16,537 bases of DNA from a virus. Taxonomy: Duplodnaviria > Heunggongvirae > Uroviricota > Caudoviricetes. The notes beneath the pieces are model-generated. The model was not told where the DNA came from. It searched no databases and was given only the letters and a program-made list of their open reading frames with translations. Positions within the stretch are counted from its first letter, which is position 1; every line of letters starts with the position of its first letter. The translations under genes and the position numbers were made by a program. This document shows, one piece after another, positions 1 to 14,511 of this stretch. The DNA lies in IMG/VR virus record IMGVR_UViG_2703718786_000004; one strand, given 5' to 3'.

Positions 1-362
1 CACTCTGTCACCCCGTGCTCAAGGCGCCGCCCGGTGAGATGTGGCACACAGCGGAACTTGTGAATCGCCCCCCGACGGACCAGCCACCACGGCAAATCAC
101 TCTGCACGTGCAACCGCCGGTCGGCCTCACTCTGCCAGAGCAGACCACCGGCGTGGCTGTGGACCAGCGCCACAATCTCACCCTGCATCTCTGCCCGCAG
201 CCAGTCCTCCGGCGACATCCGGAAATACGCCTCCGGCTCACCGGAGATATTCACGCAGGGAAAATATCTTTCCCCTTCCGGCGTTCTCACCACGAAGCCG
301 CACGACTCCGCTGGCGCACATCGCCGGGCGTGCGCCAGAATCTCTGATTCTGTCTGTGTCAT
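1..362 (-). CDS. K: Tail assembly protein K (lambda gpK-like), N-terminal part only; the 3' end lies beyond the left window edge
   Basis: ATG at 362-360 just downstream of the L stop (369-367). My translation of the minus strand gives MTQTESEILAHARRCAPAESCGFVV.TPEGERYFPCVNISGEPEAYFRMSPEDW..VALVHSHAGG, which matches my recollection of the lambda K N-terminus. Not in the ORF track because no stop falls inside the window. Confidence 0.8.
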   Translation of the reverse strand, partial: MTQTESEILAHARRCAPAESCGFVVRTPEGERYFPCVNISGEPEAYFRMSPEDWLRAEMQGEIVALVHSHAGGLLWQSEADRRLHVQSDLPWWLVRRGAIHKFRCVPHLTGRRLEHGVTE

Positions 363-366
363 GGGA

Positions 367-1065: not shown

Positions 1066-1074
1066 CAGAGCCTC

Positions 1075-1404
1075 CTATGCCACGACCTGTTCAAAATCTG
1101 CCGTTATGGTTACCCACAGCGCCCCCACGCTTGCCGACCATTTACGACAAACCACCCTAATCGGTTTCCAGTCATAAGGTGGCGTCCACTGAAATGCGCG
1201 GACGCCACCGTGCCGTTCCAGAAAGGCTTTTAAAGATGGGTGTTCACATTTACGAACACGTATCGTCACGCTGTAAGTCGACAACTGGTTATTCAGTCCC
1301 GCCGCACGACGCTGTTCATAACCATCGCCCAGCTTCACTGTCACCACTTTCGGCTCTGATACCACATTCATATCCGGGCGCACTTTCCAGTGAAACGTCT
1401 CCAT
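1075..1404 (-). CDS. M: Minor tail protein M (lambda gpM-like), 109 aa
   Basis: 109 aa as in lambda M; METFHWKVRPDMNVV...GDGYEQRRAAGLN...WTPPYDW...FEQVV aligns closely with lambda M (MKTFRWKVKPGMDV...GDGYSQRAPAGLN...WTPPYEW...FEQVV). The start codon overlaps the H stop by 1 nt. Confidence 0.9.
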   Translation of the reverse strand: METFHWKVRPDMNVVSEPKVVTVKLGDGYEQRRAAGLNNQLSTYSVTIRVRKCEHPSLKAFLERHGGVRAFQWTPPYDWKPIRVVCRKWSASVGALWVTITADFEQVVA

Positions 1405-4400
1405 TACCGATATGCTCCACTTAACCGACCACCATCACGGGCCTGCTGTTGCATAAAGTCCGCTGCCGCTTTTTTCCCAAGGTCATAAACCACCTTCAGG
1501 GCAGCCGGACCTATCTGCCCGTTCGTGCCATCGTTATTGATCTCAATGTTGTACTGCGGGGCAAACATCGCCATACCTGAACCACCAATATCCGCCACAA
1601 CCCCCAGCTTACCGTCAGCACCACGACGCAGTGGCAGAATGGCTTCAGGTCCAGCTTCCCCCATCACACCCGCGCCTTTTGCAAAAGCAAAAAACGTCGG
1701 ACGGTTAACCACCGTGCCACTGTAACGACTCAAATCAGCAGACTGATAAATCCCCCCATTGGCATTCAGGGAAAGGCTGCTGAGATCAAATCCCAGTACA
1801 CTGCCAATCCCTTTTATCGATTTCATCATGGTTGCCTGCGCCAGGATTTTCGCCATATCTGACAGCACCGAAGAGGTGAAGGATTTGAAGTTGAGTTTGC
1901 CGGTAGTGACAAAAGTTGCCAGGCCATTTCCCATGTTGCTGAAGGCTGACGAGAACACCTGTTCTGCTGTTCCTGCCGTATTATCTGCATCCACGGTAAA
2001 ATCCTGAAATGCACGCAGGACTCCGTTTTTCCAGTTACCCTGCACAACTTCAAGCTGTTGCCAGTAACGGCGATTCTCATTCAGTTGTCGGTTCAGGCTC
2101 TCCGTCAGCGCCTGCTCGGCCTTTCTGTAGTCATCCGTGTTATATGCCCCTTTCTGCTCACTATCCCGCCTCAACTGCTCCAGCTGTTGCTGGTATTTCT
2201 GGCGAAGACTCAGTTGTACCTGATATCGCTGCCGCTGCTGATCACCCATACCCACCGTGGCGATATCCAGGTCATGTTGCTGGCGCTGAGCGCGCTCTTC
2301 TTCAGCCAGTTGACTGGTCAGCTGAATTGTTTTTTTCTTCAGCTCGTTGAGTGCCGTCTGTTTCTGAAGCTCCTGCTGTTTTACATCCAGCAGCGTCAGT
2401 GCCTGAATCAGTTCATCTTTACGGGCCAGTACACTCTTTTCATCTGCCGTCAGTTTTTTCCCGTCCAGGTCGCTGATGCGCTGCTGCAGAGCCAGAAGCT
2501 GTTTATGCGCTTCTGTCATCCTTTCCGTGGCAATGCCTGCTGACTGTCTGGCAGCAGCAATCTGTCCTTCCACCTGTGCCTGTTGCTGACTGTACTGCAG
2601 CAATAACCGGGTGGCCTCATCATTACGGGTTTCGCGTGTTTTTTTCTTACCGGATGCCAGGGCTTTCTCGTAACGTTCATTTTCACGTTGTATCGCCGCA
2701 TCCCTGACAGCCTGATCGGCGTACTGCATGGCATTAATACGCGCAATTTCACGCTGATGTCGTGCTGCTTCCGTTTCATTCATCCGGTTCAGTGCAGCAT
2801 TTTCAGCATTACGGCGTTTCTGTTGCTCCTGATAATTCCGCTCTGCCTGCTCTTTTGCATCCTGCAAATCCTTCTGGCGTTTTTTCTCCTGAAGATCGTT
2901 AAGACGCTGCTGATCGTATTCAACCTGAGAAGATGATGCCGTCCAGGGGAGTCTTTTCGCCCGCGACACTTTCTCCTGTAAAGCGGCAATCTGTTCATCC
3001 AGCGAGTCTTCACGACCAATATTCATGGCCGCATCCCAGAAACGACTCCATAAATCAGACAGATACTTCAGCGTACTGCCCAGCGCATTGAGGTTATTAT
3101 CAATATCCGCAGTACGCCGACCGGTTTCCTCTGCCAGTGCAGACATGGCTATCCGTGCCGCATCACTGGACCGCCCCTGCTCTCCAAGGACGCGTATCTG
3201 CTCAAGCTGAGTGGCAGTAAGAAAATGCAGCTCATTGTCCAGAGACTTCGCGGCATTTACAGGATCATCCTTCAGCCGCTCAAACTGATTTATGGTATCG
3301 CTGACCGACTGGCCAACCGATCGCTCCATCTGTGCGGCAGCTCTCGCCACCATACCGATATCGTTTCCACGAAATGCACCACTCCCCACCACCTGAGCCA
3401 GCGCACCGGCTGCAGCATGTTGCGTGATACCATTCCCGGAAATAGCACGACTGAGCGTCCACAGCTGCCCGGCAGTGACTCCGGCATAATGCCCCGTCAG
3501 TGACAGCTGGCGGTTAAATTCTTCCCCCTCCTTCTGACCGTCATACCAGGCTTTACCCAGACCATAGACGGCCGCGGCAATACCGCCAATAACCCCGCCA
3601 AGCATCATGCCTTTCGGTGACATCAGTGTGTCTATCCATCCGGCACGGTTAGCCAGCGTTATTCCGGATCCCCTCAGCGCACCTAAATTTCCGCGGGCCA
3701 GTTCACCTATCAGAACGCCTATCTCCTGACGGGCCGCTGCACTTTTCAGCCCCAGCGAATGCGTGGCTTTTCCTGCCTGCTCCATTTTGCGGATATACAC
3801 TTCTGCAGCACTGCTTACCCCCAGCTGGGCAGCCTTAGCACGAAGCAACTCAGAAGAAGAAAGATTCTGGCGGGTTGCCTGCTCTTTAAGCTGACGGATA
3901 AACGCCACTTTCTGTCGGGTAGCCTCTTCCTCAGCCTGTGTAAGAACACGGGTTTTCGCAGTAACCTCAGAAATCAGCGCCAGATAATCCTGCTGACCAA
4001 TCCCGCCACTGTTTCTGGCCTGTCGGATCTGCTGCTGAATACGCTGTAATTCCTGCAGCCCCGCACTGGCCTGTTTCACACTGTCAATCTGACGATAAAA
4101 CGCAGCAGCCGCTTTATCCTGAGCCTCCGCCAGAGCCATGGCCTGCGCCTGTTCCTCGCGCATTTTCTGGCTCAGCGCCTCCATGCGCTGGCGGGTTTTC
4201 TCCACCTCGCGGGCCATGCGTTCATGAGCCTGTGCGTTCTTCTCCACCGTCTGCGCATGGACGGATGCGGCTGTTGCAGCCGAAGAAGCCGCCTGCGTTG
4301 TCTGCCGGGCGGCCTGAGTCTGACGCTCCATAAAACGCTGCATACGGGCAGAAGACCGTTCTGCATCGCTGGCTGCACCATTCAGAAGGTTTTTGATACG

Positions 4401-4469
4401 GGGGATTTCATTTTTAAACTCTGCCGCATCAATCCCCAAATCAATGACCAGGTTGGCTATCTGGTCCAT
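1404..4469 (-). CDS. H: Tail tape measure protein (lambda gpH-like), about 1021 aa
   Basis: Track ORF 1404..4499 begins at a TTG; the likely start is the ATG at 4469-4467, preceded by GGAGGTG. N-terminus MDQIANLVIDLGIDAAEF resembles lambda H MAEPVGDLVVDLSLDAARF; C-terminus NNDGTNGQIGPAALKVVYD...RDGG is near-identical to the lambda H C-terminus. Long Q/A/E/R-rich helical middle is typical of tape measure proteins. Confidence 0.9.
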   Translation of the reverse strand: MDQIANLVIDLGIDAAEFKNEIPRIKNLLNGAASDAERSSARMQRFMERQTQAARQTTQAASSAATAASVHAQTVEKNAQAHERMAREVEKTRQRMEALSQKMREEQAQAMALAEAQDKAAAAFYRQIDSVKQASAGLQELQRIQQQIRQARNSGGIGQQDYLALISEVTAKTRVLTQAEEEATRQKVAFIRQLKEQATRQNLSSSELLRAKAAQLGVSSAAEVYIRKMEQAGKATHSLGLKSAAARQEIGVLIGELARGNLGALRGSGITLANRAGWIDTLMSPKGMMLGGVIGGIAAAVYGLGKAWYDGQKEGEEFNRQLSLTGHYAGVTAGQLWTLSRAISGNGITQHAAAGALAQVVGSGAFRGNDIGMVARAAAQMERSVGQSVSDTINQFERLKDDPVNAAKSLDNELHFLTATQLEQIRVLGEQGRSSDAARIAMSALAEETGRRTADIDNNLNALGSTLKYLSDLWSRFWDAAMNIGREDSLDEQIAALQEKVSRAKRLPWTASSSQVEYDQQRLNDLQEKKRQKDLQDAKEQAERNYQEQQKRRNAENAALNRMNETEAARHQREIARINAMQYADQAVRDAAIQRENERYEKALASGKKKTRETRNDEATRLLLQYSQQQAQVEGQIAAARQSAGIATERMTEAHKQLLALQQRISDLDGKKLTADEKSVLARKDELIQALTLLDVKQQELQKQTALNELKKKTIQLTSQLAEEERAQRQQHDLDIATVGMGDQQRQRYQVQLSLRQKYQQQLEQLRRDSEQKGAYNTDDYRKAEQALTESLNRQLNENRRYWQQLEVVQGNWKNGVLRAFQDFTVDADNTAGTAEQVFSSAFSNMGNGLATFVTTGKLNFKSFTSSVLSDMAKILAQATMMKSIKGIGSVLGFDLSSLSLNANGGIYQSADLSRYSGTVVNRPTFFAFAKGAGVMGEAGPEAILPLRRGADGKLGVVADIGGSGMAMFAPQYNIEINNDGTNGQIGPAALKVVYDLGKKAAADFMQQQARDGGRLSGAYR

Positions 4470-5168
4470 AACGCACACCTCCGGAAATACCTTCCCCAAG
4501 ATGCATCAGTTCTTCGTCCGTTCGCTCCGGTATCCCGTTCTCTTCCGGTAAAAGGCTGAAATCAGCCACCGCAGCATCACTGCTGCCGGACACCATTCTC
4601 ACGATCAATGCCTTCAGCGAGGCAAACTGCGCATCCATCCACACATCACTGAAGCTCTGCATCCGGAAATAATCGCCCCACTCACCAAGCTCAGTGGCCG
4701 ACATTTCCGACAGCATCCGCCGCCAGTCTGCCCGCCGGAACTCCCGGGCAAGCCGCATGACAAACTGCATTTCCCGCGTCAGGACTTTTCCGGCGTCAGC
4801 GCCTCATGCTCATCATCCCCGGCATTATCAATGGTCCCCATACCGCTCAGCGACAGAACCATCTCCGCCCCCGCACCCAGGGCATCATACGACCATGTTG
4901 TAATAACGGATGCGCAAAGCGTCTCTACATCCTTAGACTGATCCGCATTCCACAGTGAGCGGGAAACCAGCCAGGCATTGATATCCATCCCCATCCGCAG
5001 AAAAGCAATCTGTCGTTCAGCCTCCGGCAGTTCTCCCTCTTCGGCATCAAACTTTGCCGTTCGCTGCTGAACAAACGCCAGATATTCAATTCTCTGCAGC
5101 CCGGACAGCTCACTGAGCACCACGGACTGCTTTTCATAATTAAACGTGCCCTGTTTCAGAAACATCAT
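4441..5168 (-). CDS. T: G-T tail assembly chaperone fusion made by a programmed -1 ribosomal frameshift near the 3' end of G
   Basis: The T-frame ORF is open on the minus strand from 4803 to the stop at 4443-4441 and is in the -1 frame relative to G. The heptamer GGAAAAG (minus strand, plus coordinates 4791-4785) lies one codon before the G stop and is a one-base variant of lambda's GGGAAAG slippery site. Gene order V-G-T-H is the conserved context for this frameshift. The T segment overlaps the H start by about 29 nt. Confidence 0.7.
4779..5168 (-). CDS. G: Tail assembly chaperone G (lambda gpG-like), about 129 aa
   Basis: Track ORF starts at a TTG (5207). The realistic start is ATG 5168-5166 (or the adjacent ATG 5165-5163), preceded by GGTGGAG. 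MMFLKQGTFNYEKQSVVLSELSGLQRIEYLAF resembles lambda G MFLKTESFEHNGVTVTLSELSALQRIEHLAL. Stop TGA at 4781-4779. Confidence 0.85.
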   Translation of the reverse strand: MMFLKQGTFNYEKQSVVLSELSGLQRIEYLAFVQQRTAKFDAEEGELPEAERQIAFLRMGMDINAWLVSRSLWNADQSKDVETLCASVITTWSYDALGAGAEMVLSLSGMGTIDNAGDDEHEALTPEKS

Positions 5169-5180
5169 GTTCTCCACCTG

Positions 5181-5205
5181 AAAAAAAGCCCCGGATAACC
5201 GGGGC
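5181..5205 (-). terminator. Intrinsic terminator-like hairpin between V and G
   Basis: Minus-strand sequence GCCCCGG-TTAT-CCGGGGC followed by TTTTTTT: a perfect 7-bp GC stem, 4-nt loop and 7-U tract, in the 57-nt spacer between the V stop (5226) and the G start (5168). Confidence 0.6.
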
Positions 5206-5225
5206 AAATGATGAGTATCGTCCTG

Positions 5226-5969
5226 TTAACCTGCGGCGCTGACAGCCACCGTAGCCACTGCCACAAAATCGCCGTCAGAAGTCATGCCCACAATGCTGAC
5301 ACTGCCCTGCTTCACGCCTTTCACCGTGGCCACAAGCCCGTTCAGGGTCACCGTGGCAGTCTGTGGATCTGTCGAATGCACACTGATCGCTTTGTCACTG
5401 GCTCCGTCAGGTTTTACTGTAAAGGTCAGCGTGGTGGTTGCTCCCACTTTTACACTGGCAGATGCCGGTGCCACCGTCAGCCCGGTAACGCCCACGGTTT
5501 CAGTGCCTTCCTCTGCCAGATACGGACGCCCCACACCGCTGATTTTCACTGTGCGGGTCATCACGTCTTTTGAGGCAATGGTTTTACCCAGTGAGCTCAG
5601 CCAGCCACGGAAAACATCAACAGTGCCGTTGGGATATTTGATACGAAACGCGCAGACTTCACCGGAGTCGAACAACTGAACCAGTTTTTTCTGCCCGCTG
5701 TCACCCGGACGCCAGGCCAGCGTCGCCGAAGTATCACCAACGGATTTCTGCCCCTGGGTTGTCGTTTTCCAGTCTGCATCTTCATCATCGAGATAAGTGT
5801 CATCTTCTGCATCAGCGGTCATTTCGCCAGGTTGCAGATCCTTCACCATCGCAAGACGCAGCCAGTCAGTGTCCGACAAAGGGTTCGCAAATGCGTCGCC
5901 GTTGCCGGTATACATCCAGAACGTCGTTCCCGCACCTTTCGTTTTTGCCAGTGGATTTGGTGTGGTCAT
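5226..5969 (-). CDS. V: Major tail protein V (lambda gpV-like), about 247 aa
   Basis: Track ORF (5226..6044) has a 25-codon N-terminal extension. The start is reset to ATG 5969-5967, preceded by AAGGAGGTGG. MTTPNPLAKTKGAGTTFWMYTGNGDAFANPLSD...DTYLDDEDADW...KYPNGTVDVFRGW aligns with lambda V ([33 protein letters not shown]...DSYLDDEDADW...RFPNGTVDVFRGW). Confidence 0.9.
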   Translation of the reverse strand: MTTPNPLAKTKGAGTTFWMYTGNGDAFANPLSDTDWLRLAMVKDLQPGEMTADAEDDTYLDDEDADWKTTTQGQKSVGDTSATLAWRPGDSGQKKLVQLFDSGEVCAFRIKYPNGTVDVFRGWLSSLGKTIASKDVMTRTVKISGVGRPYLAEEGTETVGVTGLTVAPASASVKVGATTTLTFTVKPDGASDKAISVHSTDPQTATVTLNGLVATVKGVKQGSVSIVGMTSDGDFVAVATVAVSAAG

Positions 5970-5979
5970 TACCACCTCC

Positions 5980-6381
5980 TTAATTCGTGTACGTGATCTG
6001 GTACGTGATTTCCGCCATCGCCCAGGTGGCCATCTCATTATCACGTTGATAGTTAAAACCGAGTGGGATCAGGGTGTCGATGAGTCCGGAAAGTGCCGGT
6101 ACATCATTCAGGGCCGGGAAAATGGTGCTCTCCATCCACATATCCAGCTCTGAATCCGGTGCTTGTGCCCGGATGAAGACAGCAATATGCAGAACAGCCT
6201 GCCAGTCATCTTCATCCGTCATTTTTCCGGTGTACTGAGCATCACTCAGCCACACCGCCACGGCAGGCAGTTCCTGCGCATCAACAAATGCCGGAAGCCC
6301 GTCAAAAAACGTGGCGCTGTCTCCACACTGTTCCCGAAGGCGTGCCAGTACGACCTGGCGGATTTGTGTATGTCGGTTCAT
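5980..6381 (-). CDS. U: Tail terminator protein U (lambda gpU-like), about 133 aa
   Basis: Start reset to ATG 6381-6379, which overlaps the Z stop (ATGA). MNRHTQIRQVVLARL...ATFFDG.PA.VDA...PAVAVWL...YTG aligns with lambda U (MKHTELRAAVLDAL...ATFFDGRPAVFDE..FPAVAVYL..YTG). Confidence 0.85.
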   Translation of the reverse strand: MNRHTQIRQVVLARLREQCGDSATFFDGLPAFVDAQELPAVAVWLSDAQYTGKMTDEDDWQAVLHIAVFIRAQAPDSELDMWMESTIFPALNDVPALSGLIDTLIPLGFNYQRDNEMATWAMAEITYQITYTN

Positions 6382-6956
6382 CGGGTCAGCCATAACCTCA
6401 GTTGTTGTTTCAGTGCATACCCCAACTGTTTCGGCATTTCCGCAGCAATGATGCGGTCGCGGGCATCTTCAAATGCCTGTGTCAGCGGTCCGGACAACGG
6501 GATTTTCACCACATCAATGGGGTAACGATTTTTGCCATCAATACGCCGCATCACATGCCAGCGACCATTCGCCAGTTGCTGAATAAACGCATCCCGGAAA
6601 AGATATTTACCCACCTTCAGCACACTGCCACGGTACTGCAGTTTTCCACCACGCCGGGCCAGTCCGACCCGGGCTGTCCCCAGCTTAATGGCGGGCAGAT
6701 TGCCCCGGTTGACGCGGATCCTGGCCGTCATTTTTCCTGACGGACTGGCTTTAAACACCCGGACACGCTGACGTACCAGTTTCAGGGGTATCCCTTTCAC
6801 CTGGTTATCTCCCGCAACGGTATTCCCGGCAACCTGCCGGGTGGCAACCGAGACCGCTTTCTGTGCCACACGGTTTATCGCCCATGCGCTGGCCTGTGGC
6901 ACCATACGGGTATCAAGGCTGTTCAGATTGCGGATGGCATTCTCAAGCCCCTTCAT
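6378..6956 (-). CDS. Z: Tail completion protein Z (lambda gpZ-like), 192 aa
   Basis: 192 aa, the same length as lambda Z and in the gpZ position immediately upstream of U; preceded by AGAGGTG. Assignment rests on synteny and size. Confidence 0.8.
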   Translation of the reverse strand: MKGLENAIRNLNSLDTRMVPQASAWAINRVAQKAVSVATRQVAGNTVAGDNQVKGIPLKLVRQRVRVFKASPSGKMTARIRVNRGNLPAIKLGTARVGLARRGGKLQYRGSVLKVGKYLFRDAFIQQLANGRWHVMRRIDGKNRYPIDVVKIPLSGPLTQAFEDARDRIIAAEMPKQLGYALKQQLRLWLTR

Positions 6957-6967
6957 CCCACACCTCT

Positions 6968-7243
6968 TTACTCAATAAAGATCATTGGCTTACCGTTAAA
7001 GCGTTCATGCCGTGTGACCGTCCAATGTTGTCCGTCATAAACAACGCGATCCCCGCGCCGTGGGCGGTATCCCAAAGAAAACACCACCAGAGAGACAGCA
7101 GGTCCGGACAGAGCATTCAGCTCTGCCAGTGTTTCGCCCGGGATCACAGCCATATCGACATCATTAATCGAGGCTGTCTTTCCCATCTTTCTGACCGTGA
7201 TCGCATCCATACGCGCTGCCAGCCGAGAAAAGGGATCAGACAT
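6968..7243 (-). CDS. Small head-tail joining / head completion protein (at the lambda FII position), 91 aa
   Basis: ORF with ATG at 7243-7241 overlapping the end of the upstream gene by 8 nt. It sits between the head genes and Z, where lambda carries FII, but I see no convincing similarity to lambda FII, so the call is positional. Confidence 0.5.
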   Translation of the reverse strand: MSDPFSRLAARMDAITVRKMGKTASINDVDMAVIPGETLAELNALSGPAVSLVVFSLGYRPRRGDRVVYDGQHWTVTRHERFNGKPMIFIE

Positions 7244-7559
7244 TGAGTTTTACCGGCACTTCTTCTGCACTGGTTCCGGCATCTGCCCAGACAACCCCGA
7301 CCAGCGGATCAGAGCCGCTGTTAGTCAGCTGAACTTTTCCGGACTTCAGATAAACCTTCTTACCCGTTTTCATGTCATCCGTTTTCAGCTTAGGCAGGAT
7401 AAACACACCTTCGGTCATGCCGTCGCCTGTTTCACCCTGTGGAATATCGGTCAGCGCCACCGCAAAAACATCACCCACCTGCACCAGATCTCCGCTGCTG
7501 ATGGCTGCACTGGCAACAATCGCCACCGTTTTTCCTTCTTCTACAAAATTCTTTGCCAT
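7236..7559 (-). CDS. Small capsid-associated protein, about 107 aa (DUF2190-like; possible head decoration or stabilisation protein)
   Basis: Track ORF starts at a TTG (7604). The likely start is ATG 7559-7557, preceded by GGAGACAG. MAKNFVEEGKTVAIVASAAISSGDLVQVGDVFAVAL... is the size and Gly/Val-rich beta-type composition I associate with DUF2190 proteins found just downstream of major capsid genes. Family assignment is from memory. Confidence 0.45.
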   Translation of the reverse strand: MAKNFVEEGKTVAIVASAAISSGDLVQVGDVFAVALTDIPQGETGDGMTEGVFILPKLKTDDMKTGKKVYLKSGKVQLTNSGSDPLVGVVWADAGTSAEEVPVKLNV

Positions 7560-7602
7560 AACTGTCTCCGCACAGCCCCGTTCAGGGGCTGATTTCAGGT
7601 AC

Positions 7603-7622
7603 AAAAAAAGCCCTTACGGGCC
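7603..7622 (-). terminator. Weak terminator-like hairpin downstream of the capsid gene
   Basis: Minus strand GCCC-GTAA-GGGC followed by TTTTTTT: only a 4-bp stem with a GNRA-type loop, but a clean 7-U tract, lying between the capsid stop (7646) and the next start (7559). A stronger hairpin follows at 7573-7591 (CAGCCCC-TGAAC-GGGGCTG) with no U tract. Confidence 0.35.
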
Positions 7623-7645
7623 ATCAGAGTTGTTGTCTGCGACGT

Positions 7646-9673
7646 TTACGCCGTACATTTCACCAGACCGCGGTGATCAACTGGCGCGACACCGGCGTCA
7701 ATACGCACTTTCGTTGTCACGCCATCCACACTGAAGCCCTCCATCTGATCAATATATGGCGTATCCACACCGTTGAGATAAGCCACTTCAATCGTATCGG
7801 AGCCTTTGGACGCAGCCAGGTAGAAGGTGGTCTGGCTGTTATCATCAAGACGAGGCTCTGCAATAACGGTCGCAAAATCTTTCACCGGGTTAATAATACC
7901 GGCGTTAATGTCAGCCCCCTTGACACTTGAGGAGCGAATGACCTGGTTAGCAACAGACTCCATCGCCGTCGGTACCAGTACGAACGCAGGACGAATATTC
8001 AGATGACGCTCCCCCTCTTTCTGAACGCGCATCAACTGGCGGGCTTTATCCAGCGATGCCACGTCCATTGCAGCGCTCTCCAGTACGTTTGCATGTTTCG
8101 CTTTATCGAACAGACTTACATTATCTGTGGAGATTTTCGGGTTAGACGTCAGAATGGCATAAACCAGATCGGCAATAGTGGATTTCGCCGCACGGCCCAG
8201 TTTCATCGGGACATCGGTCAGCATATTCAGATCATCATTGATAATGGCCTGACGGGTGATACTGAACAGCTCGCCATAGGTCGCCAGTGCAATAGTGGCC
8301 TGTTTATCTCCGGTGGTGACGTATTTATATTCCGCCCCTTCACGCACCTGACGCAGAGCACTGAAGCCCCCCATACCCACACGATGGGCAATTTTAAAAT
8401 CAGACAACTGACCTTTCCGCGTCCACTGTTCATAGGTTTCAGGGGCATCTTCCCAGCCCTGCAGAATGGCTTTGTTCGCAACATCCAGCAGAATATTACC
8501 GAAGTCAGACGTACTGTGTGTGAACGCCGCACCGACCATCTGCATCGGGTTATAACTGGAAACCCCAATACCCCGTTCAGTCAGTGACATACGGGCATAT
8601 TCACGCAGGGTCATCCCGTTGTAGACATTATCACGTTCGGTTTTTTCAAATCCGGCACGCGCCATCAGCGCCTGGCGGATCCCGTCCCCCACAAAATTAC
8701 CGTTACCGGCATAAATATGAGCCGGGGTATTTTTATTGGATGGCGTGGACTCGCGCCCCATCTCGTTCAACAACTTTTCGCGGGCCTGCTCCAGCGAACA
8801 TTCAGGATCGGCAAGACACTGAGCCTGCAGCGTCTGATAACGCCCGCCAAACATGGCAAACAGATCATTAATACCGTTTACACGCGCTTTTTGCTCTGCC
8901 AGTACCTGCGCACGGATACTGTTTTCATCCACCACGGGTGCTGCTGCCTGCACTGGCGTCCGGGAGGCTGCAGGTTCATCATCCTGTACGCGTGGAGCAC
9001 TGTTGCGTGGCGGAGTAATCATGTTTCGAATGGATTCCGGCATCTTTTTAAATTCCTCTGTACGTTTTGACTGAATACATGCCATTGCCTTAACGGCTGG
9101 CGTTACCTGATCAGCAAATCCCTGTGCCAGACATTCGGCACCGGACATCCAGGTCTCATCCGCCAGCATGGCAGCAATTTCATCGGTGGTTTTCCCGGTT
9201 TTCTGTGCATAAGCGGGTAACAGAACCGCCTCAACCTTATCGAGCAGGTCGGCATAGGTGCGCATGTCCTCCGCATCACCGCCCGTAAAGCCAAATGGTT
9301 TATGAATCATCATGAAGGTGTTTTCCGGCATAATGACCGGGTTTCCCACCATCGCAATGACCGACGCCATTGACGCCGCCACACCGTCGACATAAACGGT
9401 AATGGACGCACCATGTGTTTTCAGCGCATTAAAAATGGCGATGCCTTCAAAGACATCGCCACCCGGTGAATTAATATGGAGATTAATGTGGGTGATATCG
9501 CCCAGTGCATTCAGATCACTGATAAACTGCTTCGCTGTAACACCCCAGAAACCAATCTCGTCATAAATATAAATATCCGCGTCACTCTGGTGACCAGCCT
9601 GCATCCTGAACCAGGAATTATTCTTCGGACTGGTCGTCGGTGTGCTGTGGCTCCTGTCGTTTCGTTGCGGCAC
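7646..9673 (-). CDS. Fused prohead protease (ClpP/S14-like) and major capsid protein, about 675 aa
   Basis: One uninterrupted reading frame. The N-terminal ~200 aa carry ClpP-type catalytic motifs read from the translation: DIYIYDEIG, serine motif GVAASMAS and histidine motif MMIHKP. A Pro/Ala-rich linker and helical segment follow, then a C-terminal ~300 aa that I interpret as the capsid shell domain. Likely start is GTG 9673-9671, with AAGGAGG 5 nt upstream, overlapping the portal 3' end; alternative start ATG 9604. The track's 9865 start is an artefactual extension inside the portal gene. Confidence 0.75.
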   Translation of the reverse strand: MPQRNDRSHSTPTTSPKNNSWFRMQAGHQSDADIYIYDEIGFWGVTAKQFISDLNALGDITHINLHINSPGGDVFEGIAIFNALKTHGASITVYVDGVAASMASVIAMVGNPVIMPENTFMMIHKPFGFTGGDAEDMRTYADLLDKVEAVLLPAYAQKTGKTTDEIAAMLADETWMSGAECLAQGFADQVTPAVKAMACIQSKRTEEFKKMPESIRNMITPPRNSAPRVQDDEPAASRTPVQAAAPVVDENSIRAQVLAEQKARVNGINDLFAMFGGRYQTLQAQCLADPECSLEQAREKLLNEMGRESTPSNKNTPAHIYAGNGNFVGDGIRQALMARAGFEKTERDNVYNGMTLREYARMSLTERGIGVSSYNPMQMVGAAFTHSTSDFGNILLDVANKAILQGWEDAPETYEQWTRKGQLSDFKIAHRVGMGGFSALRQVREGAEYKYVTTGDKQATIALATYGELFSITRQAIINDDLNMLTDVPMKLGRAAKSTIADLVYAILTSNPKISTDNVSLFDKAKHANVLESAAMDVASLDKARQLMRVQKEGERHLNIRPAFVLVPTAMESVANQVIRSSSVKGADINAGIINPVKDFATVIAEPRLDDNSQTTFYLAASKGSDTIEVAYLNGVDTPYIDQMEGFSVDGVTTKVRIDAGVAPVDHRGLVKCTA

Positions 9674-11126
9674 TGCTGCCTCCTTTATCACTGGCCGGAT
9701 CGGTATCAAATACCAGATCCAGCTTGCGGTTTTCATCAATTTCGGCCTTGCGCCGACGTTTGACATCATCCGGATTACGACCACCTGCACGTACCCAGTC
9801 TGATTCTGTCGCCGCTCCACCACGAATCTGGATTTTCCAGGCCTCAGCCTCCTTAACAGGGTCAATCCACGGCATCACTGGTCCGGAATACACCGCGGTA
9901 TACAGTGAAGAACGGTCAAGATCGCGGGGTAGCCTGATAACACCGGATGCCACAGCCTGTTTCAGCCAGGCACGATACATCGGGCGGGTGACGGCACCAA
10001 TAAACCAGTCCTGCAGGATCAGGTAGCCATCAGTAGACTCAACCAGTTCCTGACGCTGGGCGCTGTAAGTGCCGTTATAGTTGCGTGCCGTACTGGAAAA
10101 ACTCAGACGACTGCCCGCCGCCACGGCACGCAACTGACCATTACGAAAAGTTTCAAGGTTAGGATTGGGACGATCCGACTTCACCATTCCGATTTCTTCG
10201 CCGGGTTTCAGATCGTCGTAAATAATGCCTGGCTGAATGGTAAGCTCGCGTTCATTCTCCTTGCTGCCATTACCATCCGGTTCATAGCTCTGCCCGTCGC
10301 CTTTCCGGATGTACATCCCCAGAGCAGCGGCGATCCTTGCTGCAGTCAGCTCAGAATCTTCATACTCTTTCAGGGCACTGAGGCGGATCAGCACACCGGA
10401 CAACAAAGACGTCCCGCGCATCTGGTGCAGACGGCGAACAAATTTAAGATGCAGCATTCGCTCTGCATCCACTTCTTTGGTTTCCATCTGCCGCCCGGAT
10501 ACGGGACGGCTTTTATACACCAGATATTTTTCGGGACGCCCCCAGTCATCAACAAACACGCCCTGATTCAGCCTGTTGCTCTCATCACTGGTCATGGGAA
10601 TAAAGTCCGGCTCGAGCGCCTCCAGCCAGAAATGAACACCGGCAGAAGGCGTCAGGCTGTTTATGCGCCCGGAAACCATCTGGGCAAACACCTCACCATC
10701 GCGCAGCCAGGTACGCAGCATCAGACGTTCCAGCATCGGACGGGTAAACTGCCCGGTGACTTCCGGACTGACAGACCATTCACTCCATCGGGTGCGTATC
10801 TCCGCTGCCAGATCACGGGCAATGGCCCCATTGCGTAATACCGGATGTGGCTCGACAATAATCCCGTTTTTCCCCACCACCCGTTCTTCCAGCTTGTCAA
10901 ATACACCAATAACCAGATCGTGGTTGTTATCAAGGTAACGGGCCTGCTCACGTAACGACACGGCCCCGTACTGGCTTAACTGGTCGGCAGTTCGGTTTTC
11001 CCGCCGGGCTTTGTGTGTCCGCGTCGTTTTTACGGCCTCATAAGCCTGGATCACCGCACGGGAACGCAGCCTTGCCGCTTTCCATCCTGGTGAAAAAACG
11101 CCAATCACATCATCAAGAATTGCCAT
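9618..11126 (-). CDS. Portal protein, about 502 aa
   Basis: Large ORF between the W-like gene and the protease-capsid gene, the conserved portal position. Start reset to ATG 11126-11124, which overlaps the W-like stop (ATGA) and is preceded by GAGG. Acidic C-terminus. Not obviously similar to lambda B. Confidence 0.75.
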   Translation of the reverse strand: MAILDDVIGVFSPGWKAARLRSRAVIQAYEAVKTTRTHKARRENRTADQLSQYGAVSLREQARYLDNNHDLVIGVFDKLEERVVGKNGIIVEPHPVLRNGAIARDLAAEIRTRWSEWSVSPEVTGQFTRPMLERLMLRTWLRDGEVFAQMVSGRINSLTPSAGVHFWLEALEPDFIPMTSDESNRLNQGVFVDDWGRPEKYLVYKSRPVSGRQMETKEVDAERMLHLKFVRRLHQMRGTSLLSGVLIRLSALKEYEDSELTAARIAAALGMYIRKGDGQSYEPDGNGSKENERELTIQPGIIYDDLKPGEEIGMVKSDRPNPNLETFRNGQLRAVAAGSRLSFSSTARNYNGTYSAQRQELVESTDGYLILQDWFIGAVTRPMYRAWLKQAVASGVIRLPRDLDRSSLYTAVYSGPVMPWIDPVKEAEAWKIQIRGGAATESDWVRAGGRNPDDVKRRRKAEIDENRKLDLVFDTDPASDKGGSSAATKRQEPQHTDDQSEE

Positions 11127-11338
11127 CAGAACCTCGCCAGCCGGTACCCGGGATGCCCCCGTCGTCGTGTAATCAGAGCCGCAAGGCGGCGCTCCCACTC
11201 CTGCCGTCCCTGCCGGATCTCAGATAAGTTTTCCATGGTCATCTGCTGACCATTAAAGGTGACGGATTTTCCGTCCAGCACCGCCATTTCAGCTTCCGTA
11301 TAACGCTGAATCATGGCTTCGATATCATTCTGGTTCAT
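11126..11338 (-). CDS. W: Head-tail joining / head completion protein (lambda gpW-like), about 70 aa
   Basis: Small ORF between terminase large subunit and portal, as for lambda W. C-terminal region (...LAALITRRRGHPGYRLARF) resembles the lambda W C-terminus (...TQRRRGPAGFYV). Start ATG 11338-11336 overlaps the terminase stop (ATGA); ATG 11344 is an alternative. Confidence 0.7.
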   Translation of the reverse strand: MNQNDIEAMIQRYTEAEMAVLDGKSVTFNGQQMTMENLSEIRQGRQEWERRLAALITRRRGHPGYRLARF

Positions 11339-13437
11339 AACCATCCTCCGGAAGTCAGCCAGGGGTTAACATCGTCAGTTACTGTTTTCTTCCGTTTTTG
11401 TTTTTTAACAGGCGTGGATACCGGTTCCGGTGAGGGTGACGGTTCGGTACTGTCCGGGACACACTCCAGCCAGGTTTCCCGGCTCGCCCACTCCGGTGCA
11501 TCCGGCCAGCGGATCTTTTCGTATCCATGCAGAATGACCAGAGCCTCGGCATACACCATCAGGTCAAAAGCTTCGTTGGCACCGCGACCCGGCTTACTCC
11601 ATTTCCCGTCACTACTCCGCTCTTCATACGTCAGTTCGTCGTAAAACCAGCTCCCCAGCCAGTCAGGGAAATGCACATAGCCGGGACCTGGCGAGTCACG
11701 CCATAACGCGTTATTCACCCGGTCTTTCAGGGCATCCGTCTGAAGAAGCCAGAGCGGCACATCACCTGCGGCCTGCGCCCGTCGGCCCGTTCGTCCGGTG
11801 TTATCAGGGAATGTACGGGTGATCAGTTTTGCGCGCCGGATGCTGTCGCCCTTAAACAGGTAAATACGTTTACCAAGGCCATCACGACGGCAACGACGCC
11901 AGAATTTATAGGCATTATCAGTGACCCCGTCTTCACCGCCGGAGTCCACCGCCATTGCCATCAGTCGCATTTGTTGAGAAGGATCGGAGGCCAGCGGCCA
12001 GCTTTTATGAAAAACATCCGTCAGCAGGACATCCCAGTCTTCCGGATAGCTGGCCGGATCAATTCGCTGGCTCTCCCCGTCGCTGTCACCGCGCAATGAC
12101 TGCGTGATGTTGTAACGATCAATAATCCAGCGTTCGCCACGGCTGCCATAGCCCGTTACCTGAACCACAAAACGGCGATGACGTCCCGCCTGCACATCAA
12201 CTGTCGCCACCAGGAAATTAACGCCATCCGGCACACTGCGGGAAGGAACTGGCTCTGCCCGCTGCTCAAGCAGTTCACTTTTTCGTTGCTCCATGCTGGC
12301 ACGGGGAAGATAAGGTAATCCCCAGTCGGTATTGATAACCGTCTTGAGTGTTTCTTCACTTCCGGTTGTCTCGTATTCCTGTTCTGCAGTAAGCAGTTTG
12401 TAAACGAGTTGCGAGAGTGTCTGGTAAGCAGCTGCCGGACCCTCCATCCAGAATGACGCAATACGTGAGCGTCGGGGATCACCATAACGACTGCCATCCG
12501 CATTGATGGATTCACCATCCCGCAACCAGACCCCACGTCCGTTCAGCTCACGTTTTTGTTCAGGCATAATCCGTCCTGAACAGGAAGGACACTGAATATA
12601 AGCCGCCTCACTTGCCAGCACGGGATCGGCAATATCACGGAAACCAGCAACCACATCGCCGCAGGGCTGAAAATACTCACCACAGTGTGGACAGGGCCAG
12701 TACCAGCGACGGCGATCGCCACGGTTATAGAGCGACAGTATCCCCGTGGTTGGTGGAGCCTCATGCGGTGAAGTCCGTCGCCATTTCACATCCTTCACAT
12801 CCCTGCCGGGGGAACTCTCCACCAGCGTCATACCACTGGACATAAATGTGGTGGTACGTTTTGAGGCAAGAGAGAAGGCATCCCCCTCGCCATCAATATC
12901 TTCCGGAAAACGGTCATAATCCGTCAGCGCCACGCATTTATAATCTGATGAGGACATGATATTGACTGACGGCCAGCCGATTTTCAGGTAGTTGCCAGCA
13001 AGGAATGTTCTGTCATAAACGTTGTTGTCATTTTTGTTCGGACTCAGGCGACTGACCACTTCCGGGCTGACGCGAAACGTTCTGGCAAGTCGTTTTTTGG
13101 AGTGTTCGCGGGCTTTTTCCTCCGTCATCTGAATGATCAGCATATCCGCAGGATCGCAAATCACGTTGTAAATCACCCAGCCGTCAATCAGGCCGATAGT
13201 CTTGCCAGTTCGTGCCGGGCCAACAAATATCACTGCGTCGTATTCACGCGAGGCCAGGCAGTTCATCGGCTCAATAACATACGGTGCCACCAGCGGATCC
13301 CACGGGACTGAGTTCCCGGCCCCCATGGGCACCCGCATATACTGAGCAACGGCATCAGCAACCCGCATTCGTCTCGGTGCGCGAAGGATATAACCTGAAT
13401 CGGTTCGTGCTGCCTTTGCGGTTTCCTGATTCAGCAT
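11335..13437 (-). CDS. Terminase large subunit (lambda gpA family), 700 aa
   Basis: N-terminal Walker A-like VGPARTGKT; the CPHCGE zinc-finger-like motif also present in lambda gpA (CPHCGEE); size and position immediately downstream of the small subunit, with overlapping start/stop. Confidence 0.9.
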   Translation of the reverse strand: MLNQETAKAARTDSGYILRAPRRMRVADAVAQYMRVPMGAGNSVPWDPLVAPYVIEPMNCLASREYDAVIFVGPARTGKTIGLIDGWVIYNVICDPADMLIIQMTEEKAREHSKKRLARTFRVSPEVVSRLSPNKNDNNVYDRTFLAGNYLKIGWPSVNIMSSSDYKCVALTDYDRFPEDIDGEGDAFSLASKRTTTFMSSGMTLVESSPGRDVKDVKWRRTSPHEAPPTTGILSLYNRGDRRRWYWPCPHCGEYFQPCGDVVAGFRDIADPVLASEAAYIQCPSCSGRIMPEQKRELNGRGVWLRDGESINADGSRYGDPRRSRIASFWMEGPAAAYQTLSQLVYKLLTAEQEYETTGSEETLKTVINTDWGLPYLPRASMEQRKSELLEQRAEPVPSRSVPDGVNFLVATVDVQAGRHRRFVVQVTGYGSRGERWIIDRYNITQSLRGDSDGESQRIDPASYPEDWDVLLTDVFHKSWPLASDPSQQMRLMAMAVDSGGEDGVTDNAYKFWRRCRRDGLGKRIYLFKGDSIRRAKLITRTFPDNTGRTGRRAQAAGDVPLWLLQTDALKDRVNNALWRDSPGPGYVHFPDWLGSWFYDELTYEERSSDGKWSKPGRGANEAFDLMVYAEALVILHGYEKIRWPDAPEWASRETWLECVPDSTEPSPSPEPVSTPVKKQKRKKTVTDDVNPWLTSGGWL

Positions 13438-13931
13438 TACTCCTCCTGCTGTAATTCCTCCTCATCATCCGCACCTGCTTCAGTCACCCGCAGGGCTATC
13501 TGATCGCGCAGATCATCAATAATGGACTGAACACGGCTCACAGCGGCAGGCTGCAGACCGCAGTCACGTTCCAGAATATCCGGTAATGTCTCCAGCACCT
13601 GCACGACCGCTTTTGCCCAGATGGCAAACTCCCGTCTGACATCACTGGCCGGAATGAGTTGTGCCGTTTCCTGTTCGAACTTAAGACGCTCACGTTCAGA
13701 CTGATACCAGGCTTTGCGCTCATGCGCGTCCATTTCGCCTTCTGCAACCGGCGGTGGCAATGCCAGAAATGCCGACACAATATCAACCACCCGATAAAGC
13801 TTGAGGTTGCTTTCATGCCCCCCTGCAACGGGTAGATTTTGCAGCCTTGCCGCAGCAGTCTGGCGATGTACACCTGACAGTGCCGCCAGTTGACTGATAT
13901 TCAGCGTCAGATTTTTTAACTCTCGATCCAT
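13437..13931 (-). CDS. Terminase small subunit (Nu1-like), 164 aa
   Basis: First gene downstream of the cos site, about 175 nt from cosN as in lambda. N-terminal helix-turn-helix-like segment (LNISQLAALSGVHRQTAAARL) and acidic C-terminus; its stop overlaps the large-subunit ATG. Confidence 0.8.
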   Translation of the reverse strand: MDRELKNLTLNISQLAALSGVHRQTAAARLQNLPVAGGHESNLKLYRVVDIVSAFLALPPPVAEGEMDAHERKAWYQSERERLKFEQETAQLIPASDVRREFAIWAKAVVQVLETLPDILERDCGLQPAAVSRVQSIIDDLRDQIALRVTEAGADDEEELQQEE

Positions 13932-14150
13932 ACCCGCTCCAGAATGTTTTAAACATGCATCTTGCGAACAACTTTAGGCAAACGGTGTTAGTGATGAACA
14001 AAAAACAATCAAAATCGACACCGCAAAAATAAAACTACTGCAATATCAATCAATTACAGCAGTGGCGATGACGAATGAAATTTCAAAAACTAGCCTTTTT
14101 CCGCGACGCTCCCGCCCCGTGGCAGGCCACCCCACCGGGAGGACCCGTCA
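13932..14150 (-). other. cos site: cosQ-like and cosN-like elements plus an A/T-rich cosB region
   Basis: Minus strand reads ...ACGGGTCCTCCCGGTGGGGTGGCCTGCCACG-GGGCGGGAGCGT-CGCGG..., against lambda ...ACGGGTCCTTTCCGGTGATCCGACAGGTTACG-GGGCGGCGACCT-CGCGGG... (lambda sequence from memory). The cosN-like 12-mer is at plus 14106-14117. The A/T-rich stretch from there to the terminase small subunit start corresponds to cosB. Confidence 0.75.
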
Positions 14151-14511
14151 GCCTGACAGCTCTGACGAACGTCTGATACAACGCCTTGCATGAATGGCAT
14201 CGGGATAATCCAGAAAGGCATAGCATCGTGCCCACAAGAATCTGTGTAAGTGTCCTGTTTCTTCCACCCCCGCACAGGACTGGCGAGCATGAGGGACAAA
14301 CCCGCGAACCATAAACGCGGTAAAAACCCGGTGTGCATCGTTTTTGATTATTCCCGCACACTCGCGCAGAAGGAGTTCCCCGTCGGGCTACGGTCTCTGT
14401 TAATACGGGAATACGGCGACGATACAGCGCATGATGTGTCAGGCTTGAATACCTTTATCCGTTAAAAGGGATATCAGTTAAGCTATCCCGTGTAGGGTAT
14501 AAGCCATTATC

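What the first reader, a model, noticed from the sequence alone, without database searches (positions are those of the whole stretch)
13932..14150. Lambda-type cos site with a variant cosN core
The minus strand carries a segment that aligns base-for-base with the lambda cosQ-cosN junction, but the 12-nt core is GGGCGGGAGCGT rather than lambda's GGGCGGCGACCT, a difference at 4 of 12 positions. The flanks (ACG upstream, CGCGG downstream) and the cosQ-like ACGGGTCC.(T/C)CCGGTG are conserved. It sits about 175 nt upstream of the terminase small subunit, mirroring the lambda cos-Nu1 spacing. If the nicks fall as in lambda, this phage would have cohesive ends that do not anneal to lambda's. The lambda sequence is from memory.
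Basis: partly seen in the sequence, partly recalled or inferred. Interest (0 to 1): 0.5.

Follow-up and report, generated by a model that had tools for sequence, protein, structure and literature searches.

The report
Common lambda-type cos site, variant overhang
This is the DNA-packaging cut site (cos) of a very common E. coli lambda-like prophage; its predicted 12-base sticky end differs from lambda's at four bases, but the same site already sits at the ends of deposited phage genomes, so it is ordinary.

Summary
On the minus strand, GGGTCC-N21-ACG|GGGCGGGAGCGT|CGCGG lies at 14146-14101. It is unique in the window and absent from 200 shuffles. It matches the true lambda cosQ-cosN junction, except for one base fewer in the cosQ-cosN spacer. 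The core differs from lambda's at bp 7, 8, 9 and 11.

It lies 174 nt upstream of a small terminase gene. A gpA-family large terminase, a lambda-family portal and head and tail genes follow. The small terminase is Pfam DUF1441, not Nu1, and is only remotely related to Nu1.

- **Already deposited:** GenBank records of phage cdtI (2007) and phage Tritos start at GGGCGGGAGCGT and end at ...CCACG.
- **Common:** The 81-nt site occurs in 2097 of 5426 complete E. coli genomes and in more than 120 IMG/VR stretches.
- **Expected variation:** Feiss et al. 2015 report that natural variation in bp 7-12 of cosN is common. Gifsy-1 differs from this core at one base only.
- **cosB:** The window's only IHF consensus match lies here, with three candidate terminase-binding repeats arranged as in lambda.

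Verdict: a genuine lambda-type cos whose overhang is not fully complementary to lambda's. Its nick positions are inferred, not measured. It is already known as a kind, and interest is low.

The parts
14141..14147 (-). cosQ-like element, the packaging-termination signal. It reads CGGGTCC with core GGGTCC at 14146-14141, and the G of GGGTCC is 29 nt before the predicted top-strand nick (30 nt in lambda).
   Evidence: The core is identical to lambda's GGGTCC. It is conserved in all three cosB types that carry this cosN allele, while sequence further upstream is variable.
14104..14119 (-). cosN, reading CG|GGGCGGGAGCGT|CG. The predicted 12-nt 5' cohesive end GGGCGGGAGCGT is window 14117..14106. 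The predicted nicks fall between 14118/14117 on the minus strand and, on the complementary strand, opposite 14106/14105.
   Evidence: The sequence is shown. The pattern is unique and absent from shuffles. GenBank records of phage cdtI and phage Tritos begin at this G and end at ...CCACG. The differences from lambda are at bp 7, 8, 9 and 11, and 8 of 16 positions show two-fold symmetry against 10 of 16 in lambda.
14083..14103 (-). Conserved cosN-proximal spacer (cos bp 15-35, CGGAAAAAGGCTAGTTTTTGA). It is shared by phages with different TerS/cosB types.
   Evidence: The spacer is nearly invariant across types a, b and c. Bp 1-24 were fixed by the search pattern, and bp 25-33 (CTAGTTTTT) are conserved independently of it.
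14062..14072 (-). Candidate R3-like small-terminase binding site, GTCATCGCCAC (cos bp 46-56, motif TCGCCAC).
   Evidence: It occupies the same position as GTCATCATCATC in Fels-1, VT1-Sakai and mEp213-like cos regions. Lambda R3 is at bp 50-65 (PMC9026076). Binding is inferred, not shown.
14044..14056 (+). IHF consensus match TATCAATCAATTA (cos bp 62-74). It is a candidate I1-like bending site.
   Evidence: This is the only WATCAANNNNTTR match in the 16.5-kb window, where 0.47 are expected. The same core sits at the same position in cosB types a, b and c.
14015..14021 (+). Candidate R2-like site in inverted orientation (TCGACAC on the plus strand; cos bp 97-103).
   Evidence: It is positionally equivalent to the inverted GATGATGAT of Fels-1 and VT1-Sakai. 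This is inferred.
13987..13999 (-). Candidate R1-like site, GTTCATCACTAAC (cos bp 119-131, motif TCATCAC).
   Evidence: It is positionally equivalent to GTTCATCATC, GTTCACCATC and GTTCGACATC at bp 118-127 in related cos regions. This is inferred.
13437..13931 (-). Small terminase subunit, 164 aa, Pfam DUF1441 / PHROG 141. It is the presumed cosB-binding protein.
   Evidence: Pfam DUF1441 scores E 2.7e-41. phrog_141 'terminase small subunit' scores E 7e-74 and also hits lambda Nu1's phrog_57 at 8e-10. hhalign against the Nu1 family gives 60% probability, E 8e-5. BLASTP finds no similarity to Nu1.
11335..13437 (-). Large terminase subunit, 700 aa, gpA family. It carries the ATPase and the endonuclease presumed to nick cosN.
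   Evidence: Pfam GpA_ATPase scores 8.5e-72 and GpA_nuclease 1.1e-85. It is 25% identical to lambda gpA. It is 88% identical to phage cdtI TerL and identical from about residue 381 to the end.

Best explanation
This is the cohesive-end site (cos) of an E. coli lambdoid prophage of the mEp460 / cdtI / Tritos head-gene type. The proposed mechanism follows lambda.

1. During lytic growth the small terminase (DUF1441 family) binds cosB, the 174 bp between cosN and its own start codon. Host IHF probably helps by bending the DNA at 14044-14056.
2. This positions the gpA-family large terminase on cosN.
3. The nuclease nicks both strands 12 bp apart, between ACG|GGG on one strand and after GCGT|CG on the other. 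The result is a virion chromosome with 5'-protruding ends GGGCGGGAGCGT.
4. Packaging runs towards the terminase and head genes and ends at the next cos, where GGGTCC (cosQ) is needed for the terminal cut.

The overhang differs from lambda's at bp 7, 8, 9 and 11, so it is not fully complementary to lambda's.

**Shown:** the sequence, its uniqueness, its context, its identity to the ends of deposited phage genomes, and its wide distribution.
**Inferred:** the nick positions, the overhang length and polarity, and TerS and IHF binding.
For: - **Match to lambda:** The sequence matches the real lambda cosQ-cosN junction. It occurs once in the window and in none of 200 shuffles.
- **Gene context:** lysis genes - cos - TerS - gpA-family TerL - lambda-family portal - ClpP/capsid fusion - tail genes.
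- **Spacing:** The TerS ATG is at cos bp 187, against 191 in lambda.
- **Deposited genome ends:** Phage cdtI (AB285204) and phage Tritos (OV696610) start at GGGCGGGAGCGTCGCGGAAAAAGGCTAGTTTTT and end at ...CCTGCCACG. Tritos forms plaques (PMC9928086).
- **Assembly break:** The deposited assembly of mEp460_4F5 (LR595868) starts and ends 5 nt upstream of the predicted nick.
- **Matching nuclease:** The window TerL is identical to cdtI TerL from about residue 381 to the end, which covers most of the nuclease domain. TerS is only 42% identical, which fits a shared cosN/cosQ with a different cosB.
- **Published variation:** Natural cosN variation concentrates in bp 7-12, and lambda terminase nicks such variants. 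[quoted passage not shown] The window core is Gifsy-1's with one further change at bp 7.
- **cosB features:** The only IHF consensus match in the window lies in cosB and is conserved across three cosB types. Three TCRNCAC motifs in -> <- -> order sit where relatives have TCATCATC-type repeats.
- **Distribution:** 2097 of 5426 complete E. coli genomes hold the site, and more than 120 IMG/VR stretches hold the exact 24-mer.
Against: - I could read no experimental end-mapping for this allele or for this TerL clade, which is only 25% identical to lambda gpA. Asakura 2007 and Vahanian 2017 are not held.
- The Tritos paper does not discuss cos, so the record ends may have been set by analogy.
- The closest relatives' cos in the literature I could read (LLS/mEp213) is explicitly 'inferred' (PMC12315714).
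- The R-site assignment in this window is post hoc. The repeat finder found no direct or inverted repeats of these motifs here, and the window's R3 candidate deviates from its clade's consensus (TCATCGCC versus TCATCACC).
- This particular prophage may not be inducible. In the best-matching genome an IS911 interrupts a methyltransferase gene just upstream of the lysis genes.
Confidence: 0.88

Rival explanations
1. The site is a real cos, but the nicks are not placed as in lambda. The overhang would then have a different length or register, for example 10, 11 or 13 nt, or be set by distance from cosB rather than by the ACG/CGCGG flanks.
For: TerL is only 25% identical to lambda gpA, and no end mapping was found. 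In VT1-Sakai-type relatives with the same DUF1441/gpA-like terminase, only 10-11 bp separate the conserved ACG and CGCGG flanks. The interval is therefore not rigidly 12 bp in this clade. The two-fold symmetry of cosN is weaker here, 8 of 16 against 10 of 16 in lambda.
Against: In this allele the interval is exactly 12 bp and both CG flanks are identical to lambda's. Two phage records are cut exactly at the lambda-equivalent position. The cosQ-cosN and cosN-TerS spacings match lambda within 1-4 nt.
Confidence: 0.07
2. The sequence is a relic. The prophage is defective and this cos is no longer used, or it is used only when another helper phage's terminase acts on it.
For: The best-matching genome has an IS911 in the adjacent late region. 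E. coli carries many decayed lambdoid prophages. The window's R3 candidate carries a rare substitution, seen in only one other sampled contig.
Against: TerS, TerL, portal, capsid and tail ORFs are all intact in the window. cosQ, cosN and the IHF core are identical to those of relatives deposited as phage genomes. This rival concerns activity of this copy, not the nature of the element.
Confidence: 0.04
3. The resemblance to lambda cos is chance similarity in a GC-rich intergenic stretch, and the phage packages by a headful (pac) mechanism.
For: There is essentially none. The small terminase is not a Pfam Nu1 family member.
Against: The pattern is absent from 200 shuffles. The site is conserved across hundreds of prophages, always just upstream of TerS. 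TerL has the gpA ATPase and gpA nuclease domains; by established knowledge, large-terminase type correlates with end type (Casjens and Gilcrease, as cited in PMC12315714).
Confidence: 0.01

Closest known systems
Phage lambda cos (cosQ-cosN-cosB; NC_001416)
   Same: The GGGTCC cosQ core, the ACG and CGCGG nick flanks and bp 1-6 of the overhang are identical. A 12-bp interval separates the flanks. The order is cosQ - cosN - cosB - TerS - gpA-type TerL, and the TerS ATG is about 190 bp from the nick. An IHF consensus and three candidate repeats in -> <- -> order lie in cosB.
   Different: The overhang differs at bp 7, 8, 9 and 11, and the cosQ-to-nick spacer is 1 nt shorter. The cosB sequence is unrelated. 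TerS is DUF1441 rather than Nu1, with only remote, profile-level similarity. TerL is only 25% identical to gpA.
Phage cdtI (AB285204, 2007) and phage Tritos (OV696610, E. coli LF82 prophage 3)
   Same: cosN and its first 33 bp are identical, and cosQ is the same. Both records begin and end exactly at the predicted nick. cdtI TerL is 88% identical to the window's and identical from about residue 381 to the end.
   Different: cosB beyond bp ~34 is a different type (type b). cdtI TerS is only 42% identical.
Phage mEp460 and relatives (JQ182728, LR595868, phi458, vB_EcoS-569R4)
   Same: The whole cos, including cosB and TerS, is 93-97% identical to the window. This is the window's own cos type (type a).
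   Different: There are only point differences. The mEp460 record is linearised just upstream of TerS rather than at cosN.
Salmonella phage Gifsy-1 cosN (GGGCGGCAGCGT)
   Same: The 12-mer differs from the window's at bp 7 only. Feiss et al. cite Gifsy-1 as a natural right-half cosN variant (PMC4669245).
   Different: Gifsy-1 has a true lambda/21-type Nu1 and gpA and a lambda-like cosB.
mEp213 / LLS cos (GGGCGGCGCGCT, inferred; PMC12315714)
   Same: The terminase clade is the same DUF1441/gpA-like one. The cosQ and the GGCTAGTTTTT spacer are the same, and an R3-like GTCATCATC lies at bp ~44-57.
   Different: The overhang differs at bp 7-11. TerS starts at bp ~128 rather than 187.

Membership tests
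Lambda-type cos site (12-nt 5' cohesive ends, as the lambda-like phages are defined by Feiss et al.) | [quoted passage not shown] | tested here: met
   The site reads ACG|GGGCGGGAGCGT|CGCGG. Bp 1-6 and both flanks are identical to lambda, and 8 of 12 core positions are identical. The pattern is unique, with 0 of 200 shuffles matching.
Lambda-type cos site (12-nt 5' cohesive ends, as the lambda-like phages are defined by Feiss et al.) | cosQ (GGGTCC-containing 7-mer) about 30 bp upstream of the nick | tested here: met
   GGGTCC lies at 14146-14141, 29 nt before the nick, against 30 in lambda. It is conserved across relatives, while sequence upstream of it is not.
Lambda-type cos site (12-nt 5' cohesive ends, as the lambda-like phages are defined by Feiss et al.) | cosB between cosN and the small terminase gene, with TerS-binding repeats (R3, inverted R2, R1) and an IHF site | tested here: inconclusive
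   The only IHF consensus match in the window lies at cos bp 62-74. Three TCRNCAC motifs sit at bp 50-56, 97-103 (inverted) and 121-127, in positions where Fels-1 and VT1-Sakai have clear TCATCATC repeats. The motif was defined post hoc, the repeat finder found nothing of the kind in the window itself, and binding was not tested.
Lambda-type cos site (12-nt 5' cohesive ends, as the lambda-like phages are defined by Feiss et al.) | Adjacent gpA-family large terminase (ATPase plus cos-nicking endonuclease) | tested here: met
   Pfam GpA_ATPase scores 8.5e-72 and GpA_nuclease 1.1e-85.
Lambda-type cos site (12-nt 5' cohesive ends, as the lambda-like phages are defined by Feiss et al.) | [quoted passage not shown] | tested here: inconclusive
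   The protein is Pfam DUF1441, not Phage_Nu1, and BLASTP finds no similarity. However, PHROG hits are reciprocal (phrog_141 and phrog_57, E 1e-8 to 1e-10), and hhalign gives 60% probability, E 8e-5, colinear from the N-terminus. No structure was predicted.
Lambda-type cos site (12-nt 5' cohesive ends, as the lambda-like phages are defined by Feiss et al.) | Virion DNA actually carries complementary 12-nt 5' single-stranded ends at this site | not testable with these tools
   Only indirect evidence exists. Two GenBank phage records are linearised at the site, and one deposited phage assembly breaks 5 nt away. The papers that might hold mapping data are not held.

The most novel reading that the evidence does not exclude
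Within the accessible record, the cohesive ends of the DUF1441-TerS / divergent-gpA terminase clade have never been physically mapped. One cosQ-cosN allele (GGGCGGGAGCGT) is shared by at least three distinct cosB/TerS specificities. Sister lineages (VT1-Sakai type) have only 10-11 bp between the conserved nick flanks. The most novel reading not excluded is that nick placement in this clade is set differently from lambda. Overhang length or register would then vary between lineages, and the shared cosN/cosQ module would let phages of different initiation specificity terminate on, and exchange ends with, one another.
Probability: 0.08. Interest if true: 0.35.

Novelty: already known. Interest (0 to 1): 0.12.

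Why it matters
It matters little beyond annotation. The site is unannotated in RefSeq E. coli genomes ('none' under every listed match), although about 39% of complete genomes carry it. Marking it would help define prophage packaging modules and predict virion genome ends. It would also help predict which lambdoid phages, or cos-bearing satellites, could share or mis-pair cohesive ends. It adds one more example to the published rule that bp 7-12 of cosN drift freely, while cosQ, bp 1-6 and the CG flanks are fixed.

Tried and rejected
- **Literature on the 12-mer:** I searched for the 12-mer, its reverse complement and the 11-mer. Only unrelated eukaryotic or VSV papers print them, and papers naming mEp460 gave nothing on cos.
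- **Papers not held:** I tried to read Vahanian et al. 2017 (Virology 509:140, the natural-history survey of cosN) and Asakura et al. 2007 (the phage cdtI paper). Neither is held, so I cannot say whether the ends were mapped or whether this allele is tabulated there. The Tritos paper contains no text on cos or termini.
- **Rfam:** A scan of the whole window gave no match, so a structured-RNA explanation has no support.
- **Solved structures:** TerS and TerL have no sequence relative among solved structures. I did not run structure prediction, because the question was about the DNA site.
- **ORFs across cos:** The 92-aa ORF across cos (14083-14361, minus strand) and the 71-aa ORF at 14250-14465 (plus strand) have no Pfam, NCBIfam or PHROG match. 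PGAP does not call them. I treated them as non-genes.
- **Virome contig ends:** I looked for contigs that start exactly at the nick, which would be physical-end evidence. None of the listed IMG/VR matches lies at a locus end, and most come from isolate-genome prophage predictions.
- **PICI or satellite cos:** I rejected this for the window because a full terminase-head-tail operon follows the site.
- **Repeats in cosB:** The repeat finder found no repeats of the candidate R motifs in the window's cosB. The R-site proposal rests on positional comparison with relatives.

Full report
**Observation.** The minus strand of the window reads ...GCTGACGGGTCCTCCCGGTGGGGTGGCCTGCCACG GGGCGGGAGCGT CGCGGAAAAAGGCTAGTTTTTG.... 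The 12-mer occupies window 14117..14106 and GGGTCC occupies 14146..14141. I fetched lambda itself. The core differs from lambda's at bp 7, 8, 9 and 11. The ACG and CGCGG flanks and GGGTCC are identical.

The composite pattern GGGTCC-N18-26-ACGGGGCGG-N6-CGCGG occurs once in the 16.5-kb window and in none of 200 dinucleotide-preserving shuffles. There is one small correction: the spacer between cosQ and the nick is one base shorter than in lambda (29 against 30 nt). The match is therefore not strictly base-for-base.

**Context.** The window is the late region of an E. coli lambdoid prophage, transcribed on the minus strand. It is 99.8% identical to E. coli 377323_2f. At least 80% of the window is present in 1753 of 5426 complete E. 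coli genomes. The RefSeq annotation of the best match gives this order: holin EssD, lysozyme RrrD, Rz-like lysis protein, a 50-aa ORF, about 675 bp with no called gene, a 'DUF1441 family protein', a large terminase, a small head protein, a portal, a ClpP-protease/major-capsid fusion and lambda-like tail genes.

Pfam confirms the following:
- The 700-aa protein at 11335-13437 has the gpA ATPase and gpA endonuclease domains.
- The portal belongs to the lambda family.
- The 164-aa protein at 13437-13931 is DUF1441, not Phage_Nu1.

PHROGs calls the DUF1441 protein a small terminase (phrog_141, E 7e-74). It and lambda Nu1 (phrog_57) hit each other's families weakly. A profile-profile comparison gives a colinear alignment from the N-terminal helix-turn-helix-like segment, with 60% probability and E 8e-5. 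BLASTP finds nothing between them. The small subunit is therefore at best a remote relative of Nu1. The large subunit is 25% identical to gpA. The small-terminase ATG is cos bp 187, against bp 191 for lambda Nu1.

**Related phages.** The 219-nt region is 93-95% identical in phages phi458, vB_EcoS-569R4 and mEp460. Two GenBank records matter more. Phage cdtI (AB285204, 2007) and phage Tritos (OV696610, prophage 3 of E. coli LF82) both start at GGGCGGGAGCGTCGCGGAAAAAGGCTAGTTTTT. They end at ...GGGTCCTTCCGGTGGGGTGGCCTGCCACG and ...GGGTCCTCCCGGTGGGGGCCCCTGCCACG respectively. The depositors thus linearised them exactly at the lambda-equivalent nick of this same allele. Tritos forms plaques (PMC9928086). 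Phage cdtI is described as an inducible lambdoid prophage in the title of its 2007 paper (reference list).

I could not establish that either set of ends was measured. The Tritos paper has no text on cos, and the 2007 cdtI paper is not held. The deposited assembly of mEp460_4F5 (LR595868) breaks 5 nt upstream of the predicted nick and lacks 3 nt inside cosN. That is what low, ragged coverage at physical ends tends to produce, but it is weak evidence.

**Modularity.** The window's large terminase is 88% identical to that of cdtI and identical from about residue 381 to the end, which covers most of the nuclease domain. The small terminases are only 42% identical. In step with this, cosQ, cosN and the first ~34 bp to their right are the same in both phages, and cosB then diverges.

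Among 119 usable copies, three different cosB types follow it:
- the window's type (62 copies);
- the cdtI/Tritos type (36 copies);
- a third type (19 copies).

One cosQ-cosN module therefore serves at least three presumed initiation specificities. This fits the lambda model, in which the large subunit reads cosN and cosQ and the small subunit reads cosB.

**cosB anatomy.** The IHF consensus WATCAANNNNTTR has a single match in the whole window (0.47 expected). It lies at 14044-14056, which is cos bp 62-74. The same core (ATTGAT on the minus strand) sits at the same distance from cosN in all three cosB types, although the flanks differ.

I anchored related DUF1441-type cos regions at the nick. 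They show these elements:
- GTCATCATCATC at bp ~44-57;
- the ATTGAT core at ~66-72;
- an inverted GATGATGAT or GATGTCGA at ~95-105;
- GTTCAYCATC at 118-127.

In Fels-1 and VT1-Sakai these are picked up as repeats by the tool. In the window the corresponding elements are weaker: TCGCCAC (14068-14062, minus), TCGACAC (14015-14021, plus) and TCATCAC (13997-13991, minus). These are 3 of the 28 TCRNCAC matches in the window, and they fall in 1% of its length. Their -> <- -> order matches lambda's R3, R2 and R1, as described in PMC9026076. This assignment is post hoc, and the repeat finder did not report these motifs in the window. I rate it a reasonable hypothesis, not a result.

**What is known.** Feiss et al. 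(PMC4669245) define lambda-like phages by 12-base 5' cohesive ends similar to lambda's. They make these points:
- Differences at bp 7-12 are common. N15 differs at bp 9 and 12, which I verified. Gifsy-1 differs at bp 8, 9 and 11, which I verified as GGGCGGCAGCGT.
- cosQ and the CG dinucleotides flanking the nicks are conserved.
- Lambda terminase nicks right-half variants efficiently.
- A 2-bp cohesive-end mismatch lowers viable yield about fourfold.

The window's core is Gifsy-1's plus one further change at bp 7. A 2025 paper infers GGGCGGCGCGCT for LLS and mEp213, which belong to the same terminase clade, and cites Vahanian et al. 2017 and a personal communication (PMC12315714). The window's allele is thus a frequent one. 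The 81-nt site is found in 2097 of 5426 complete E. coli genomes and is unannotated in every listed match.

**Mechanism and confidence.** I take this to be the functional cos of the prophage. TerS, probably with IHF, assembles on cosB. The gpA-type TerL nicks at ACG|GGG and GCGT|CG, giving 5'-GGGCGGGAGCGT ends. Packaging proceeds towards the head genes and terminates at the next cos with the help of cosQ. The ends would mismatch lambda's at 4 of 12 positions, so cross-annealing should be poor. This extrapolates from the published fourfold yield loss with two mismatches and was not tested.

- **Shown:** sequence, uniqueness, context, conservation, and identity to deposited phage genome ends.
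- **Inferred:** nick positions, overhang length and polarity, and protein binding.

My confidence is 0.88. The main rival (0.07) is a real cos with differently placed nicks. Its support is the low identity of TerL to gpA and the 10-11 bp flank interval in VT1-Sakai-type relatives. A decayed, unused site (0.04) or chance similarity (0.01) are unlikely.

**Verdict.** It is a well-understood kind of site, in a common allele that already sits at the ends of deposited phage genomes. Its differences from lambda fall where published work says cosN varies freely. Novelty: already known. Interest: 0.12.

Noticed in passing
L072 (IMGVR_UViG_2574179916_000005) 1-11983; cos cores at 96, 8231 and 10767: One 12-kb contig carries three lambda-type cos sites on the same strand. 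The first is followed by a DUF1441 TerS and a TerL truncated after the ATPase domain (331 aa). Next come an integrase, a Bro-N protein, an AAA_25 replication-type protein, SSB, a second cos, a ClpP/capsid fusion, a third cos (GGGCGGGAGCGG) and another DUF1441 TerS. This looks like a cos-bearing integrative element or satellite inserted into a prophage terminase gene, or a misassembly.
   Followed up: partly
L012 (VT1-Sakai AP000400) ~833; also L107, L108, L110, L123, L133: In VT1-Sakai-type prophages with the same DUF1441/gpA-like terminase, only 10-11 bp separate the conserved ACG and CGCGG nick flanks (for example GGGCGGGCGGG|CGCGG). The cosQ-cosN spacer is 2 nt longer. Either the overhang length differs there or the nicks are not set by those flanks.
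   Followed up: partly
L016 (LR597641, phage mEp460_ev081), about cos bp 23-122: This phage record has a tandem duplication of about 98 bp covering most of cosB (GGCTAGTTTTTGAAATTTCATCCG...TTTTTTGT, twice). It is either a real cosB duplication or an assembly artefact near the genome ends.
   Followed up: no
L009 (LR595868, phage mEp460_4F5) 1-30: The record starts 5 nt before the predicted nick and reads GGGCGGGAGCG-CGG. It therefore lacks 3 nt of cosN relative to the window and all other copies. This is probably an assembly error at the physical ends.
   Followed up: partly
window 14252-14500: About 250 bp between the lysis genes and cosQ, with no gene called by PGAP, is 89-96% identical in many Stx-converting and other lambdoid phages, mostly with no annotated feature there. 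The ORFs here (71 aa on the plus strand at 14250-14465; 92 aa on the minus strand at 14083-14361) have no family match. The reason for the conservation is unexplained.
   Followed up: partly
L007 (NZ_CP039404) 18985-21289, just beyond the window's right end: In the best-matching genome an IS911 interrupts a phage DNA methyltransferase gene immediately upstream of the lysis cassette. That copy of the prophage carries at least one disrupted gene.
   Followed up: no
window 7646-9865 (minus strand): The head protease and major capsid protein are fused in one ORF, annotated as a ClpP-like prohead protease/major capsid fusion. PMC12315714 describes the same arrangement for Gifsy-2. The head module is therefore not lambda-like, even though cos, portal and tail are.
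   Followed up: no
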